From Escherichia virus LS2: a stretch of DNA of 39,197 bases. Positions within the stretch are counted from its first letter, which is position 1. The number at the start of each line of letters is the position of its first letter. The notes under the pieces were generated by a model that worked only from the letters and a program-made list of their open reading frames with translations, was not told where the DNA came from and did no database searches. The position numbers were made by a program, and so were the translations under genes. Location: the sequence record MN518894.2. The stretch is one strand, 5' to 3'. Of the stretch, positions 6,344-35,924 are shown one piece after another.

Positions 6344-6395
6344 GTCGACGTACGTACGTACGTACGTACGTACGTACGTTGCATGCATGCATGCA
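6344..6395. repeat. GTCGAC followed by (ACGT)8 (6348-6379) and (TGCA)4 (6380-6395)
   Basis: Perfect tetranucleotide periodicity; alternating purine-pyrimidine, fully self-complementary; contains SalI, BsiWI, SnaBI, SphI and NsiI recognition sequences. Confidence 0.95.
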
Positions 6396-6671: not shown

Positions 6672-6686
6672 GAGTGTAACAAATTC

Positions 6687-6950
6687 ATGAACCATTACGA
6701 GCTTAAAGATTTCCTTTCAAAGCAGCAAAGAGTCTTGGACTTGTGGTTGAGCACGACTGGTATGCTCCAGCGTAGACTTAAGGTAGAGCGAGTGTCCTTC
6801 AGGACAGACTACAGCAAGAACGGCTACGAGCGAGGGACCTGCTACCGAGACTTGAGTTTACTGGACTCACTGGGTCCAACAGAATACGCCGATGCCATCG
6901 GTCCGGCTTACAACGGTCTCGCTTACACAATTTGGAGGATAACACAATGA
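6687..6950 (+). CDS. Hypothetical protein (87 aa) at the gene 1.2 position
   Basis: ORF between gp1.1 and ligase; stop overlaps the ligase ATG; no clear similarity to T7 gp1.2. Confidence 0.6.
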   Translation: MNHYELKDFLSKQQRVLDLWLSTTGMLQRRLKVERVSFRTDYSKNGYERGTCYRDLSLLDSLGPTEYADAIGPAYNGLAYTIWRITQ

Positions 6951-7999
6951 CAACTATCAAAACCAACCCGCATCGCGCTGTAGATTACTCTGAGTCAGGC
7001 GTTAAGAAAGCGCTTGAAGCTGCTGGGTCGCTGGAAGCCGAAGTGAAGTATGACGGTGTGCGGTTGAATATTCCGGTGATGCGCGAAGGTGAGAACTACT
7101 GGTTAAGCCGTGAGTCAAAAACGCTTCCGGCCTTAGACTGGGTCAACAGTGAGTCAGGACATGCATGCCGTGCGGCCGACTGGCGATGGTTCCTGAAGCA
7201 AGCAGGACATGAAGTCGTCGGTCTGCTGATTGACGGAGAGGTGCTGGTCAAGGGTGTAGACTTCAACACATCCTCAGGTCTTATCCGCACCATGTGGCTG
7301 ACCCCAAGCAACTACAAGTGCGCTGAAGGCTATCCAAGACGTGGCAACAAGGTCCCATTCCAGATAGCCCGGTTACTACTAAAAGTGGTCGTCTACGGGG
7401 TCATCGACCTTAACATCATCAACGACCCGAAAGCCGAAGGTCCTATCCATAGCGTCACACGCCTGAAGGCCGAAGCTATCGTCCCTCTCCTCCAGAAATA
7501 CTTCCCGGAAATAGACTGGGTTCTGTCTGAGTCATACATCGTGTTTGAGCTTGAGGAGCTTAACTACTTGTATGAAAAGAAGAGCCGAGAGGGCCATGAG
7601 GGTCTGGTGGTTAAAGACCCACTGGGACGCTGGAAGCGTGGCAAGAAGTCAGGTATGTTCAAGATGAAACCCGAAGAGGGCACGGACGGTACGTTGTACG
7701 GCCTGATATGGGGAACAGAAGGTCTAGCCAACGAAGGTATGGTCATCGGCTTTGACGTTATGCTTGAGAACGGGATGGAAGTGAACGCGTGCGGCCTGAC
7801 CGAAGAACAGAAAGATGAATTTACCGCGAGCGTGCTGAACTGGCGCAAAGGCCTGTGCAGCAGCACCATTTATGGCAACCCGTTTGCGGGCAACCAGGTG
7901 GAAGTGCTGTTTATGGAACGCTTTCCGGATGGCAGCCTGCGCCATCCGAGCTTTAAATGCTGGCGCGGCACCGAAGATAACCCGACCGTGAAAAGCTAG
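6947..7999 (+). CDS. gp1.3: ATP-dependent DNA ligase (T7 gene 1.3 homolog); true start ATG 6947 (MTTIKTNP...), C-terminal 73 codons recoded
   Basis: GGAGGA 7 nt upstream of ATG 6947; IKTNP N-terminus and C-terminal PDGSLRHPSF...RGTEDNP match T7 ligase. Confidence 0.93.
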   Translation: MTTIKTNPHRAVDYSESGVKKALEAAGSLEAEVKYDGVRLNIPVMREGENYWLSRESKTLPALDWVNSESGHACRAADWRWFLKQAGHEVVGLLIDGEVLVKGVDFNTSSGLIRTMWLTPSNYKCAEGYPRRGNKVPFQIARLLLKVVVYGVIDLNIINDPKAEGPIHSVTRLKAEAIVPLLQKYFPEIDWVLSESYIVFELEELNYLYEKKSREGHEGLVVKDPLGRWKRGKKSGMFKMKPEEGTDGTLYGLIWGTEGLANEGMVIGFDVMLENGMEVNACGLTEEQKDEFTASVLNWRKGLCSSTIYGNPFAGNQVEVLFMERFPDGSLRHPSFKCWRGTEDNPTVKS

Positions 8000-8152
8000 C
8001 AGAACCCACGGTCCTATACCAGGGTGTGTGACTCAGGCGGTGAACCCGTAGTCACTGCCAATCTGGAGAGAAATACGTTCAATACCAGAAATCAACTGGT
8101 CGATGGCAATAAAGCGTACGTCAGCCGAGGCGGTAGCCTAAGAGATTCATTA

Positions 8153-8192
8153 TAATGTCAACCCAGTGGTCATTAATGTCAACCCAGTGGTC
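8153..8192 (+). repeat. Tandem 19-bp direct repeat taatgtcaacccagtggtc x2 (8153-8171, 8174-8192)
   Basis: Exact duplicate; second copy forms the 5-prime arm of the terminator hairpin. Confidence 0.9.
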
Positions 8193-10992: not shown

Positions 10993-11128
10993 TCACCGGA
11001 AACATGGGACCATGAGTCCTATGGAAAGTCGTCATTTAGAATTGCGGAGTGACGAATGGCTAAATCGTATTAAGTATCAACAGCCGAGGGTCCACGTTCA
11101 GGTATGATCCACGACAACAAGGCTGAAG

Positions 11129-32876: not shown

Positions 32877-35576
32877 ATGTCCACGATTACACAATTCCCT
32901 TCAGGAAACACTCGTTACAGGATTGAGTTCGACTACCTAGCCAGAACGTTTGTTGTTGTTACGCTGGTGAATAGCTCTAACCCTGCCCTGAACCGTGTAC
33001 TGGAAGTTGGTCGAGATTACCGATTCCTTAATCCAACGATGATTGAGATGTTGGTTGACCAATCAGGTTTCGACATCGTTCGTATTCACCGTCAGACTGG
33101 AACTGACTTAGTGGTAGACTTCAGGAATGGCTCAGTGTTGACAGCTAGTGACCTGACCAATGCAGAGCTTCAGGCTATCCATATTGCAGAAGAAGGTCGA
33201 GACCAAACTGTTGACTTAGCGAAGGAATATGCCGATGCTGCTGGTAACTCTGCTGGCAACGCTAAGGATAGCGAGGACGAAGCACGACGAATCGCTGAGA
33301 GTATCAAGGCATCTGGTCTGCGAGGCTATATTACCCGTCGCTCCTTCGAGAAAGGCTTCAACGTTACAATATGGAACGAGGTACTGCTATGGGAAGAGGA
33401 TGGTGATTATTACCGATGGGATGGTGGACTGCCAAAAAACGTACCTGTTGGTTCAACTCCTGAAACGTCTGGCGGCGTTGGTTTGGGTGCGTGGGTTAGT
33501 GTTGGTGATGCGTCATTGCGCGCCCGGCCTGCCGAAAAACGTGCCGGTGGGCAGCACCCCGGAAACCAGCGGCGGCGTTGGCGCGATAACGGCGATCCGC
33601 GCGGCTGGGGCGCGATTGGCGATGGCGTGACCGATGATACCCTGGCGCTGCAGGCGTGCTTTGATACCGCGACCTGCGATATTGATCTGGGCGGCAAAAC
33701 CTATCTGGTGCGCAAAAACCCGACCCTGGCGGCGACCTATCCGAACGAACCGGATTTTAGCGATGGCAGCTATAACTATAGCCCGTGCCTGGCGCTGGTG
33801 GGCAAAAAAAACATTAAAATTCATAACGGCGCGCTGATTGTGGAAACCCATGGCCTGGATGCGATTAGCCTGATTGCGTGCGAACATGTGACCGTGGATC
33901 TGACCATTAAAGGCCCGGGCATTTTTCCGGCGATTGATACCCCGACCGGCTATGCGGAAAAAGGCGAAGCGAACTTTGGCTATGATAGCAGCCTGCTGCT
34001 GGCGCCGAACAACGCGCTGGATACCAGCGCGTATACCGGCGGCGCGTATGCGGGCGTGGCGGGCCAGTTTCCGAAATATAACGCGGATGGCAGCCAGGCG
34101 AGCGGCTGGCAGAGCACCTGGGGCACCTTTCTGGGCGGCTATATTGGCAGCTGGGCGTGCGGCGTGAAAGTGCAGCGCGCGTGCCGCGGCATTCTGATTA
34201 ACGATTGCGATATTAGCGGCTTTAACTTTGGCGCGGTGGGCATTGGCATTCGCAACACCGCGGCGGCGTATGGCGCGAGCGATTATACCACCGATGCGGA
34301 TATTCCGGATGGCGTGATGGTGATTAACACCCGCATTCGCAAATGCTATAGCGCGGGCATTTATGTGCTGAGCGGCTATCGCCTGAACTATATGGCGAAC
34401 AACATTGAAGATATTGGCCATCCGAACGGCAACGATGCGCTGAACGCGAGCTATGATCCGGGCTATGGCATTACCCATGGCCGCAACCGCCGCATTCGCA
34501 ACGTGACCATTACCGAAAACATGATTCGCAACTGCCGCCGCAAATGCATTGATTTTCATGGCGGCGGCCAGGCGATTATTGCGAAAAACCATTGCCTGGA
34601 ACATGGCGTGGTGGGCATTTATGCGAAATGCGGCCCGGGCTGGAGCCCGAACTATGAACCGTATAACCTGATTATTGCGGATAACTATGTGCGCAGCCGC
34701 GATGTGCCGGCGAGCGAAACCACCGGCCCGCTGATTGGCGCGAAATATACCCGCAGCATTGATGTGGGCGGCGGCGGCGAAGCGACCCAGGCGACCTATC
34801 CGGATCCGTTTGTGAAAATTCATAACAACTATTGCGAACTGCGCGCGTATGATGGCGTGGCGATTAGCACCGGCGCGGGCGATGATAACTATAACGTGTT
34901 TATGGATATTGATGTGAGCCATAACACCGTGGTGCTGAAATGCAACACCCCGAACAACTTTGCGGAAGGCATTGGCATTAACGCGGGCGCGGCGAGCAAC
35001 AAAGTGTATCGCGGCCAGCGCGTGAAACTGATTGGCAACAGCATTAAACAGCTGAACACCCTGAACCTGACCTATCGCAGCGCGGGCTATAAAATTCAGG
35101 GCATTCCGAAAAGCCTGATTATGCATGGCAACACCCTGGATCTGAACGTGAGCACCCAGAGCTGCAAACTGTGCGATTTTGTGATTGATAGCCGCATTAA
35201 CTATAGCTTTGAAGGCAACCAGGTGCTGAGCTTTAGCGCGCGCGATAGCGCGACCCTGCAGGAAGTGTGGCTGTATGATAACATGAAAATTACCCGCCCG
35301 GCGGCGGCGGCGGCGGCGACCATTAGCGGCAACCTGTTTCGCGGCATTTGGCAGGTGTGCATTGCGGGCACCGGCGATGCGTTTGGCGCGAAACAGACCC
35401 AGTTTGCGAGCACCGGCAGCGGCGGCACCGGCTTTGATGTGGTGCGCAGCGCGACCACCGGCTTTATTGCGACCTTTGGCATTGGCGCGAGCGGCCTGAT
35501 TGTGCCGGCGGTGACCCAGGAAAGCCAGGTGCAGATTAACCTGAAACTGGTGAGCAGCCTGGATAGCGTGGCGTAA
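32877..35576 (+). CDS. gp17: Tailspike / tail fiber (gp17 position): native T7-like N-terminal anchor (to about 33528) fused to a recoded pectate-lyase-like beta-helix (depolymerase-type) domain
   Basis: N-terminus resembles the T7 gp17 tail-binding domain (FDYLARTFVVVTL...); body contains WGAIGDGVTDDTLALQACF; single uninterrupted 899-codon ORF. Confidence 0.9.
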   Translation: MSTITQFPSGNTRYRIEFDYLARTFVVVTLVNSSNPALNRVLEVGRDYRFLNPTMIEMLVDQSGFDIVRIHRQTGTDLVVDFRNGSVLTASDLTNAELQAIHIAEEGRDQTVDLAKEYADAAGNSAGNAKDSEDEARRIAESIKASGLRGYITRRSFEKGFNVTIWNEVLLWEEDGDYYRWDGGLPKNVPVGSTPETSGGVGLGAWVSVGDASLRARPAEKRAGGQHPGNQRRRWRDNGDPRGWGAIGDGVTDDTLALQACFDTATCDIDLGGKTYLVRKNPTLAATYPNEPDFSDGSYNYSPCLALVGKKNIKIHNGALIVETHGLDAISLIACEHVTVDLTIKGPGIFPAIDTPTGYAEKGEANFGYDSSLLLAPNNALDTSAYTGGAYAGVAGQFPKYNADGSQASGWQSTWGTFLGGYIGSWACGVKVQRACRGILINDCDISGFNFGAVGIGIRNTAAAYGASDYTTDADIPDGVMVINTRIRKCYSAGIYVLSGYRLNYMANNIEDIGHPNGNDALNASYDPGYGITHGRNRRIRNVTITENMIRNCRRKCIDFHGGGQAIIAKNHCLEHGVVGIYAKCGPGWSPNYEPYNLIIADNYVRSRDVPASETTGPLIGAKYTRSIDVGGGGEATQATYPDPFVKIHNNYCELRAYDGVAISTGAGDDNYNVFMDIDVSHNTVVLKCNTPNNFAEGIGINAGAASNKVYRGQRVKLIGNSIKQLNTLNLTYRSAGYKIQGIPKSLIMHGNTLDLNVSTQSCKLCDFVIDSRINYSFEGNQVLSFSARDSATLQEVWLYDNMKITRPAAAAAATISGNLFRGIWQVCIAGTGDAFGAKQTQFASTGSGGTGFDVVRSATTGFIATFGIGASGLIVPAVTQESQVQINLKLVSSLDSVA

Positions 35577-35729
35577 GAATGCCTGTGGCTGGAAGCGGCG
35601 TTTCAGCGCCGCCGCTGCGAACGCATTGAAAGCCGCCTGACCGAACTGGAACTGATTATTAAAAAAGCGAAAGAAATTGAATCATAACAACTTTGGGTCA
35701 CGGACGACCCGCTTTAAACTGGAGGTTTT

Positions 35730-35924
35730 ATGATTGAGTTAGACTTCAAGAATGAGGTCCTTAAAGCCTCTCCTATAGTCGGGACCGCTGCGGCTGATGG
35801 TGCCAGTCGGTTCTTCTTTGGACTTACACTGAACGAATGGTTCTACGTTGCAGCTATCGCGTACACCGTTGTCCAGATTGGTGTGCTAGTCTACAAAACG
35901 ATTAAAGGAGGTGGTAAAACATGA
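35730..35924 (+). CDS. gp17.5: Class II holin (T7 gp17.5 homolog)
   Basis: SPIVGTAAADGASRFFFGLTLNEWFYVAAIAYTVVQIG matches the T7 holin. Confidence 0.9.
   Translation: MIELDFKNEVLKASPIVGTAAADGASRFFFGLTLNEWFYVAAIAYTVVQIGVLVYKTIKGGGKT

What the first reader, a model, noticed from the sequence alone, without database searches (positions are those of the whole stretch)
35577..35687. Recoded 35-codon amphipathic peptide directly after the tailspike stop, with no start codon
Immediately after the TAA at 35574-35576 and in the same frame, 35 further codons in the same one-codon-per-residue style encode ECLWLEAAFQRRRCERIESRLTELELIIKKAKEIE, then native-style TCA TAA. There is no ATG, GTG or TTG start and no ribosome-binding site. 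It is either a C-terminal extension reachable only by stop-codon readthrough or a leftover of the donor construct.
Basis: seen in the sequence. Interest (0 to 1): 0.55.

Follow-up and report, generated by a model that had tools for sequence, protein, structure and literature searches.

The report
Untranslated chaperone-helix remnant after tailspike stop
The 35 codons after the tailspike stop are a back-translated copy of the last helix of another phage tailspike's self-cleaving chaperone domain; they lie untranslated behind a strong stop codon, so they are a construction or editing leftover and not a working gene part.

Summary
After TAA 35574-35576 come 35 in-frame codons (35577-35681), then TCA TAA. 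All 35 use the same one-codon-per-residue table as the tailspike body. They are part of one unbroken run of 701 such codons, 33579-35681. There is no in-frame start codon and no Shine-Dalgarno motif.

The peptide has a source. It is 35/35 identical to the last 35 residues (858-892) of a natural 892-aa tailspike of P22-like E. coli prophages (RefSeq WP_032229949.1; four IMG/VR and two metagenome contigs). That stretch is the terminal coiled-coil helix of the C-terminal intramolecular chaperone domain (Peptidase_S74; aligns to residues 252-273 of 275 in PDB 3GW6).

The rest of that domain, including the Ser-Lys cleavage dyad, is absent from the window. The expressed spike body is a back-translation of the phage Peacock tailspike (residues 235-899, 100% identical). 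Peacock's spike naturally ends at ...SVA and has no chaperone domain.

I read the peptide as a non-functional leftover of a synthetic or in-silico patch. Readthrough of UAA-G is not supported. The one predicted consequence is at RNA level: the GAA-TCA-TAA junction pairs with the holin start codon.

Interest is low.

The parts
32877..35576 (+). Chimeric gp17 tailspike ORF, 899 aa. It is the only translated product of this region.
   Evidence: ORF list. Pfam finds Phage_T7_tail, Tail_spike_N and Beta_helix. It aligns to the Peacock tail spike over 899 aa with no gaps.
32877..33524 (+). Native-codon N-terminal anchor, residues 1-216, of LS3/ECG4 type.
   Evidence: 99.1-99.5% nucleotide identity to LS3/ECG4. 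Homology ends at 33524.
33525..33578 (+). 54-nt slice of back-translated text encoding (G)GLPKNVPVGSTPETSGG(V). It copies the ORF's own residues 184-201, lies exactly 100 nt downstream of the native copy, and is shifted +1. In the ORF frame it reads RPAEKRAGGQHPGNQRRR.
   Evidence: Top-codon run 33526-33576 in frame +1. Direct repeat D2 with spacing 100. Protein alignment.
33579..35573 (+). Back-translated receptor-binding body, identical to Peacock tail spike residues 235-899.
   Evidence: 100% amino-acid identity and 75.7% nucleotide identity to MK903279.1. Uses a single codon per residue.
35574..35576 (+). TAA stop of gp17, in UAA-G context. It sits inside the recoded run.
35577..35681 (+). 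The finding itself: 35 back-translated codons, ECLWLEAAFQRRRCERIESRLTELELIIKKAKEIE. These are residues 858-892 of the P22-like prophage tailspike and form the terminal coiled-coil helix of its Peptidase_S74 chaperone domain. Not translated.
   Evidence: 35/35 identity. 76/105 nucleotide identity to the natural gene, with differences mostly at third codon positions. Aligns to 3GW6 residues 252-273 of 275. Predicted helix.
35682..35684 (+). TCA junction triplet of unknown origin. It is not in the one-codon table, not in the natural source protein, and not in the backbone relatives.
35685..35729 (+). Native backbone resumes here: TAA, the small hairpin GGGTC-N6-GACCC, and the holin leader with SD GGAGG at 35721.
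   Evidence: Alignment A1, blastn, SD scan.
35675..35740 (+). Predicted RNA stem created by the junction. AAUCAUAA (35679-35686) pairs perfectly with UUAUGAUU around the holin AUG at 35730, and the stem is extended by AACUUU/GAGGUU.
   Evidence: MFE -19.9 kcal/mol, z -2.99. P(AUG unpaired) is 0.00-0.04, against 0.47-0.96 in Peacock, LS3 and U8. Opening energy is 1.4-5.6 kcal/mol higher, depending on relative and context length.
35730..35924 (+). Holin (gp17.5) gene, native. This is the downstream neighbour whose translation start the junction may occlude.

Best explanation
The 105 bases are an untranslated fragment carried inside an artificial, back-translated block, 33525-35681, that replaces most of gene 17 in an LS3/ECG4-type Kayfunavirus genome.

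The fragment encodes the last 35 residues of a natural P22-like E. coli prophage tailspike. Those residues are the C-terminal helix that forms the trimeric coiled coil of the intramolecular chaperone (Peptidase_S74 / ICA) domain.

In this window the fragment sits after the TAA of a Peacock-type spike body that does not use such a domain. It has no start codon and no ribosome-binding site. It lacks the other roughly 140 residues of the chaperone domain, including the Ser-Lys cleavage dyad. So it makes no protein, and it could not act as a chaperone if it did.

It is a leftover of how the block was assembled. The likeliest route is concatenated protein strings, with the donor's '*' carried along, pushed through a most-frequent-codon back-translator.

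Shown here: the sequence identity, the codon style, the missing translation signals and the missing remainder of the domain.

Inferred: (a) that the block is a scripted or in-silico patch, or a crude synthetic design; (b) that its only possible effect is as 3'-UTR RNA. As RNA it exactly fills the 108-nt spacer that Peacock has at this place, and it is predicted to pair with the holin start codon.
For: - Codon style: the 35 codons lie in one run of 701 top codons that crosses the stop. Chance P is about 1e-19.
- Source: 35/35 identity to the C-terminus of the prophage tailspike in 4 IMG/VR contigs, 2 metagenome contigs and RefSeq E. coli genomes. Nucleotide identity is only 76/105, with the differences concentrated at third codon positions. 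That pattern is what back-translation of a protein produces.
- Domain position: the source protein has Head_binding, End_N_terminal and Peptidase_S74 (residues 720-786). Its last 200 aa align to the endoNF chaperone structure 3GW6 at E 1e-32. The peptide aligns to 3GW6 residues 252-273 of 275.
- Fragmentary: only residues 858-892 of that protein are present in the window. The S720-D-x-x-x-K motif is absent. Pfam finds nothing in the peptide alone.
- Family requirements: the Ser-Lys dyad and trimer assembly are needed for ICA function (PMC3742443). The C-terminal helix is the trimerising coiled coil (PMC8326128).
- No translation signals: no in-frame start and no SD.
- Not needed by the donor: Peacock's spike ends at SVA-TAG, and a second in-frame stop follows one codon later.
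- Scripted assembly: a 54-nt out-of-frame back-translated duplicate sits exactly 100 nt from its native copy. A second back-translated patch covers the ligase C-terminus. Filler-like (ACGT)8(TGCA)4 is shared only with the LS3/ECG4 records. The spacer length of 108 nt is identical to Peacock's.
Against: - No expression data exist. Very low readthrough, or growth on an ochre-suppressor host, cannot be excluded by sequence alone.
- The fragment is in frame, free of stops and closed by a stop. It corresponds to the helix that drives trimerisation in this domain family, so a deliberate intent (a trimerisation tag) is conceivable.
- The provenance of the window is unknown. I cannot tell a physically built phage from an edited database record.
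- The TCA triplet and the choice of this particular prophage protein remain unexplained.
Confidence: 0.85

Rival explanations
1. Conditional C-terminal extension. A fraction of ribosomes read through the TAA, or all do in an ochre-suppressor host. This appends a 36-residue coiled-coil helix that helps the chimeric spike to trimerise, much as a foldon-type tag would.
For: The fragment is in frame, has no internal stop and is terminated by TAA. AF2 predicts a continuous helix at pLDDT 96.7. One heptad register has 8 of 10 hydrophobic a/d positions. The homologous helix is the main trimerisation driver of ICA domains (PMC8326128).
Against: The stop is UAA followed by G. UAA is read by both release factors, and the demonstrated bacterial readthrough cases are at UGA and are rare (PMC5373646). 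Rfam finds no RNA family here. The only predicted structure just after the stop is a hairpin in the GC-rich recoded stretch, which is not exceptional against shuffles (181-nt fold, z -2.0), so I see no evidence of a stimulatory element. The Peacock spike natively folds without any C-terminal domain. Without the cleavage dyad the extension would stay attached to the receptor-binding end. No natural relative has the arrangement.
Confidence: 0.04
2. An intended fusion that was broken by mistake. The designer meant to fuse the chaperone-domain helix to the donor body, but the donor's translated sequence kept its terminal '*', which the back-translator turned into TAA.
For: The stop lies inside the uniformly recoded run and uses the table's stop, TAA, whereas Peacock's native stop is TAG. 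The fragment starts in frame immediately after it. The other end of the block also shows an indexing error.
Against: A 35-residue piece of a roughly 170-residue domain is not a sensible chaperone graft. The source is an unrelated prophage spike, not the backbone's own U8-like chaperone end. Intent cannot be read from sequence. In either case the present sequence is untranslated.
Confidence: 0.15
3. A functional RNA spacer. The 108 nt were placed to keep the gp17-holin spacing and to fold over the holin ribosome-binding site, lowering or delaying holin synthesis.
For: The spacer length equals Peacock's 108 nt. The junction forms an 8-bp perfect duplex with the holin AUG. P(AUG unpaired) is about 0, against 0.47-0.96 in three relatives, and opening energy is 1.4-5.6 kcal/mol higher depending on relative and context length.
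Against: These are predictions only. The pairing depends on just 5 new bases added to a weak native stem and was found post hoc. Nothing suggests design, and the rest of the 105 nt is simply a protein back-translation. Ribosomes terminating at 35576, about 150 nt upstream, would not necessarily matter.
Confidence: 0.05
4. A natural fossil: the remains of a displaced tailspike gene's 3' end left behind by horizontal exchange of the receptor-binding module.
For: Such fossils exist. Peacock's own 3' UTR keeps about 60 nt homologous to the coding end of U8-type endosialidase genes (alignment A1).
Against: 35 of 35 codons are the single top codon (P about 1e-19). The fragment is continuous with an obviously back-translated block. 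No natural Kayfunavirus context was found in phage, IMG/VR or metagenome scans.
Confidence: 0.01
5. An independent small gene encoding a 36-aa helical peptide.
For: There is an open frame of 36 codons closed by a stop.
Against: There is no ATG, GTG or TTG in frame and no SD. No promoter-like site is nearby. The ATG at 35579 is in another frame and would give an unrelated 16-aa product.
Confidence: 0.01

Closest known systems
C-terminal intramolecular chaperone / ICA domain (Pfam PF13884 Peptidase_S74) of phage K1F endosialidase endoNF, PDB 3GW6
   Same: The peptide aligns to the last helix, 3GW6 residues 252-273 of 275 (FAEAAYQRRKLERIEARLSALE). Its natural parent domain aligns to 3GW6 at E 1e-32. 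It shows the heptad pattern expected of the trimeric coiled coil.
   Different: Only about 20% of the domain is present. There is no Ser-Lys dyad and none of the rest of the fold. It is not part of any translated polypeptide and it is artificially recoded.
Tailspike of P22-like E. coli prophages (RefSeq WP_032229949.1, e.g. E. coli A3 NZ_CP028771.1; IMG/VR UViG 2740892426_000004)
   Same: Residues 858-892 are identical to the peptide, 35 of 35.
   Different: The natural gene uses ordinary codons (76/105 nt identity) and ends ...GAG TAG, abutting the next gene's ATG. It has a P22-type head-binding N-terminus and an unrelated receptor-binding body. It shares only the hinge motif with Peacock.
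Escherichia phage Peacock tail spike locus (MK903279.1, QEG09711.1)
   Same: The window's spike is the same length, 899 aa. Residues 235-899 are identical. The distance from the stop to TAACAACTTTGGG is 108 nt in both.
   Different: Peacock's 108 nt are native non-coding DNA with an in-frame stop after one codon, plus a decayed remnant of a U8-type gene end. The window has the back-translated prophage helix there instead.
Programmed stop-codon readthrough extensions in phages (Qbeta A1 protein; cited from general knowledge, not re-checked here)
   Same: An in-frame open extension follows the stop codon of a structural gene.
   Different: The known cases use a leaky UGA and are conserved and essential. 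Here the stop is UAA-G in an artificial block, with no conservation.
Most-frequent-codon back-translation of protein text (EMBOSS backtranseq-style; cited from general knowledge)
   Same: One codon per residue from the E. coli top-codon table, with '*' rendered as TAA, over 701 consecutive codons.
   Different: Nothing differs. This describes the style. It says nothing about whether the DNA was ever synthesised.

Membership tests
Intramolecular chaperone auto-processing domain (CIMCD / ICA, Pfam PF13884 Peptidase_S74) | Sequence homology to the domain | tested here: met
   35/35 identity to the end of a natural domain that hits PF13884 and 3GW6. The peptide aligns to 3GW6 residues 252-273.
Intramolecular chaperone auto-processing domain (CIMCD / ICA, Pfam PF13884 Peptidase_S74) | Complete domain of roughly 150-170 residues, including the PF13884 core | tested here: not met
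   Only source residues 858-892 occur in the window (tblastn). Pfam gives no hit for the peptide alone.
Intramolecular chaperone auto-processing domain (CIMCD / ICA, Pfam PF13884 Peptidase_S74) | Catalytic Ser-Lys dyad at the cleavage site (S-D-x-x-x-K) | tested here: not met
   In the source protein the motif is at residues 720-725. It is absent from the window. The requirement is taken from PMC3742443.
Intramolecular chaperone auto-processing domain (CIMCD / ICA, Pfam PF13884 Peptidase_S74) | Translated as the C-terminal part of the trimeric fibre or spike polypeptide | tested here: not met
   It lies behind TAA 35574-35576 with no start codon or SD of its own.
Programmed stop-codon readthrough extension | Leaky stop codon and context (typically UGA) or a stimulatory RNA element | tested here: not met
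   The stop is UAA followed by G. Rfam finds no family. The only predicted structure just after the stop is a hairpin in the recoded stretch that is not exceptional against shuffles (181-nt fold, z -2.0). Background on termination comes from PMC5373646.
Programmed stop-codon readthrough extension | Extension conserved in related genomes | tested here: not met
   Peacock has an in-frame stop one codon after its TAG. No natural T7-like context carries this peptide.
Programmed stop-codon readthrough extension | Extended protein detectable | not testable with these tools
   This needs a western blot or mass spectrometry. The expected shift is 96.7 to 101.2 kDa.
Independent small ORF | Start codon with ribosome-binding site | tested here: not met
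   No in-frame ATG, GTG or TTG, and no SD-like motif between 35519 and 35720.
Artificial back-translated insert | A single codon per amino acid, continuous with the neighbouring insert, and unlike the host genome's usage | tested here: met
   A 701-codon run. Native genes use these codons 33% of the time, giving P about 1e-19 for the peptide.
Natural fossil of a displaced gene end | Native codon usage and nucleotide-level homology to a natural gene end in related phages | tested here: not met
   The codon style is artificial. Identity to the natural gene is only 76/105 nt, with third-position changes. No natural counterpart was found.

The most novel reading that the evidence does not exclude
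The fragment is a deliberate, conditionally expressed trimerisation tag. In ochre-suppressing hosts, or through rare readthrough, the chimeric spike gains the coiled-coil helix of an ICA chaperone domain without its protease part. This would test whether that helix alone can nucleate trimer assembly of a foreign beta-helix spike.
Probability: 0.03. Interest if true: 0.4.

Novelty: not a real feature. Interest (0 to 1): 0.1.

Why it matters
The value is mainly housekeeping. The window is not a clean natural genome, because its gene 17 and the end of its ligase gene contain back-translated protein text. Any annotation, host-range inference or evolutionary reading of this tailspike locus has to treat 33525-35684 as artificial.

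The result also shows that the apparent post-stop peptide should not be annotated as a gene, a readthrough product or a chaperone domain.

If the phage physically exists, two practical predictions follow. First, the out-of-frame 18-residue linker replaces a conserved hinge and may cripple the spike. Second, the junction may lower holin translation.

Tried and rejected
- Word-indexed protein search with a padded peptide found nothing.
- A full HMMER scan of 1.84 billion representatives gave one spurious multihaem-like hit. Both tools missed the exact natural source because the query is short.
- tblastn against the phage collection gave only about 72% matches to endosialidase-type gp17 ends. That pointed to the right domain but not to the source.
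- An exact search for the recoded DNA in IMG/VR was negative.
- What worked was degenerate IUPAC back-translation patterns of the peptide.
- I tested whether the backbone's original gp17 ended in ...KEIES-TAA-CAACTTTGGG. No such context exists in IMG/VR or the metagenome scan. The sibling genomes LS3 and ECG4 carry a U8-like endosialidase end instead. Rejected.
- I tested whether the other non-LS3 segments are shuffles of native sequence. They are not. They are natural mosaic alleles.
- Rfam and promoter/terminator scans of the region were empty or uninformative.
- A literature search for LS3/ECG4 engineering found nothing relevant.

Full report
**The observation**

The window is a complete T7-like (Kayfunavirus) genome. 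Gene 17 is an 899-codon ORF at 32877-35576 that ends in TAA. In the same frame follow 35 sense codons, 35577-35681, then TCA, then TAA at 35685-35687. No ATG, GTG or TTG lies in that frame. The only Shine-Dalgarno-like motif within 200 nt is the holin's GGAGG at 35721.

A scan of all six frames for runs of E. coli most-frequent codons shows that the 35 codons are not a separate item. They are the tail of one unbroken run of 701 such codons, 33579-35681, which passes straight through the stop. The window's native genes use those codons 33% of the time. For this peptide, the chance of 35 in a row is about 1e-19.

One refinement concerns 'amphipathic'. The peptide is predicted to be a single helix (AlphaFold2, pLDDT 96.7) and shows a coiled-coil heptad pattern, with 8 of 10 a/d positions hydrophobic. 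Its hydrophobic moment is unremarkable.

**The surroundings**

The backbone is closest to Escherichia viruses LS3 (MN518893.2) and ECG4 (MN218775.2). Downstream genes are 99.7-100% identical and the first 648 nt of gene 17 are 99.1-99.5% identical.

Homology to those genomes stops at 33524 and resumes at 35685, the TAA of TAACAACTTTGGG. Everything in between is artificial text.

From 33579 to 35573 the block is a back-translation of residues 235-899 of the phage Peacock tail spike (MK903279.1). Amino-acid identity is 100% and nucleotide identity is 75.7%.

Peacock's spike ends ...SLDSVA-TAG. It has no C-terminal chaperone domain, and a second in-frame stop follows one codon later. The 35-codon peptide therefore does not come from the donor.

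**What the peptide is**

tblastn against phage genomes gave about 72% matches over the first 25 residues. These matches lie at the extreme C-termini of endosialidase-type tailspikes, for example U8...RPDQCFWLEAAYQRRRCDRIETRLDKLEGCGGRG-stop. A search of solved structures aligned the peptide to residues 252-273 of the 275-residue chain of 3GW6, the intramolecular chaperone domain of K1F endosialidase.

General protein searches failed on so short a query. Degenerate DNA patterns derived from the peptide did find it, in four IMG/VR contigs and two metagenome contigs.

In all six contigs, the peptide is the exact end of an 892-residue tailspike...ERWGLRPD-ECLWLEAAFQRRRCERIESRLTELELIIKKAKEIE-TAG. 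The same gene is annotated 'phage tailspike protein' (WP_032229949.1) in a P22-like prophage next to ybhB/bioA in E. coli A3. It is complete in 14 of 5,426 complete E. coli genomes.

That protein has a P22 head-binding domain, an End_N_terminal hinge and Peptidase_S74 at residues 720-786. Its last 200 residues align to 3GW6 at E 1e-32.

The window holds only residues 858-892 of it. The S720-D-x-x-x-K cleavage motif and the rest of the domain are absent.

The natural DNA and the window's DNA share 76 of 105 bases, with 21 of the 29 differences at third codon positions. That pattern is expected if the protein sequence, not the DNA, was copied.

**What the parent domain does, and why the fragment cannot do it**

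In endosialidases the C-terminal domain is needed for folding and trimerisation and is then cleaved off (PMC12632334). Cleavage uses a conserved Ser-Lys dyad that is positioned only in the assembled trimer (PMC3742443). In the homologous MyRF ICA domain, which superposes on 3GW6, the C-terminal helix of about 36 residues forms a parallel triple coiled coil that is the main driver of trimerisation (PMC8326128).

The window's fragment corresponds to that helix alone. If it were translated it would behave as a trimerising coiled coil. It could not act as a chaperone-protease, and it would remain fused to the distal end of the spike.

**Is it translated?**

Nothing in the sequence says so. The fragment has no start codon and no SD. 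The only route is in-frame readthrough of UAA-G, because a frameshift runs into TGA at 35627 or 35638.

UAA is recognised by both RF1 and RF2, and the readthrough cases demonstrated in E. coli are rare and occur at UGA (PMC5373646). From general knowledge, UAA is the least leaky stop codon in E. coli.

No Rfam family matches the region. A hairpin is predicted in the GC-rich recoded stretch just after the stop, but the 181-nt fold is not exceptional against shuffles (z -2.0), so I see no evidence of a stimulatory element. No natural T7-like genome carries this peptide after a spike gene. I put the readthrough reading at about 4%.

**Why it is there (inference)**

Several features point to a scripted or careless assembly of protein strings, not to a considered design.

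1. The stop inside the recoded run is the back-translation table's TAA, whereas Peacock's own stop is TAG. This is what happens when a translated sequence keeps its '*'.
2. The other end of the block has a comparable defect. A 54-nt slice of back-translated text encodes the ORF's own residues 184-201. It lies exactly 100 nt from the native copy and one base out of frame, so it is read as RPAEKRAGGQHPGNQRRR. That replaces a hinge motif conserved between Peacock and the prophage spike.
3. The distance from the gene 17 stop to TAACAACTTTGGG is 108 nt, exactly as in Peacock. The 35 codons plus TCA fill the natural 3' UTR base for base.
4. A second back-translated patch covers the last 74 codons of the DNA ligase gene. 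In LS3 and ECG4 the start of the homologous stretch is garbled, and part of it lies inverted.
5. The window shares a filler-like (ACGT)8(TGCA)4 block at 6348-6395 with the LS3 and ECG4 records and with no other phage record. Those two records also carry CTGACTGACTGA(CGTA)n at the end of a heavily indel-ridden gene 17.

Taken together, I think it more likely than not that the recoded blocks are in-silico patches of a poor assembly, or a computational design, and less likely that they are a carefully built phage. I cannot prove this. Either way the peptide is a leftover.

**A natural analogue**

Peacock's own 3' UTR keeps about 60 nt homologous to the coding end of U8-type endosialidase genes (alignment A1). 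Nature does leave gene-end fossils after tailspike swaps. The window's fragment cannot be one of these, because its codon style is artificial.

**A possible side effect**

The junction GAA-TCA-TAA creates AAUCAUAA, a perfect 8-bp complement of UUAUGAUU at the holin start. This extends a weak native stem (AACUUU/GAGGUU).

Folding gives -19.9 kcal/mol with z -2.99. Across three context lengths the holin AUG is unpaired with probability 0.00-0.04, against 0.47-0.96 in Peacock, LS3 and U8. Opening the ribosome-binding region costs 10.6-12.2 kcal/mol, against 6.5-9.2 in the relatives.

This is a prediction found after the fact. It may be accidental, but it is the only way I can see the leftover affecting phenotype.

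**Verdict**

The feature is real as sequence but it is not a biological element. It is a fragment of a well-known domain, from an identifiable natural protein, stranded untranslated in an artificial block. Interest is low.

Noticed in passing
window 33525-33578: A 54-nt back-translated copy of the ORF's own residues 184-201 (GLPKNVPVGSTPETSGGV) lies exactly 100 nt downstream of the native copy and one base out of frame. It is read as RPAEKRAGGQHPGNQRRR (residues 217-234). That replaces the hinge motif DPEGATKYPELQIAR, which is conserved between Peacock and the prophage spike. It probably damages the chimeric spike.
   Followed up: partly
window 7775-7996: There is a second back-translated block: the last 74 codons of the DNA ligase gene. 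In LS3 and ECG4 the start of the homologous stretch gives junk residues, and about 35 nt of it match the window only in reverse complement.
   Followed up: partly
window 6348-6395; L003 6363-6394 and 35654-35688; L004 6365-6396 and 35656-35690: A filler-like (ACGT)8(TGCA)4 block sits just upstream of a phage promoter-like sequence. It is shared only with the LS3 and ECG4 records. Those records also carry CTGACTGACTGA, which has stops in all three frames, followed by (CGTA)n at the 3' end of gene 17. These look like placeholders, not biology.
   Followed up: partly
window 35675-35740: The GAA-TCA-TAA junction is predicted to base-pair with the holin SD/AUG through an 8-bp perfect duplex. The AUG is almost never unpaired, against 47-96% unpaired in three natural relatives. 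Holin translation may be reduced.
   Followed up: partly
L002 3301-3408 (Peacock 3' UTR) versus L005 (U8 gene 17 end): Peacock's natural 3' UTR retains a decayed remnant of the coding end of an endosialidase-type gene 17 (...LEGCGGRG-stop and downstream). This is a natural fossil of a past tailspike module exchange.
   Followed up: partly
L003 33032-35665 (LS3 gene 17): The LS3 and ECG4 gene 17 is a U8-like endosialidase gene with dozens of indels. It nevertheless stays open for 877 codons and is annotated 'peptidoglycan lytic exotransglycosylase'. The record quality is doubtful.
   Followed up: partly
window 6685-6910, 7993-8172, 10994-11122: These three segments do not align to LS3 or ECG4. 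The first has 87% matches in other Kayfunavirus genomes. The other two resemble HNH-endonuclease regions or remnants in related phages. They are natural mosaic differences, not recoded text.
   Followed up: partly
window 35579-35629: The recoding creates an ATG three bases after the gp17 stop, in another frame, giving MPVAGSGVSAPPLRTH-stop. It has no SD and is almost certainly meaningless.
   Followed up: no
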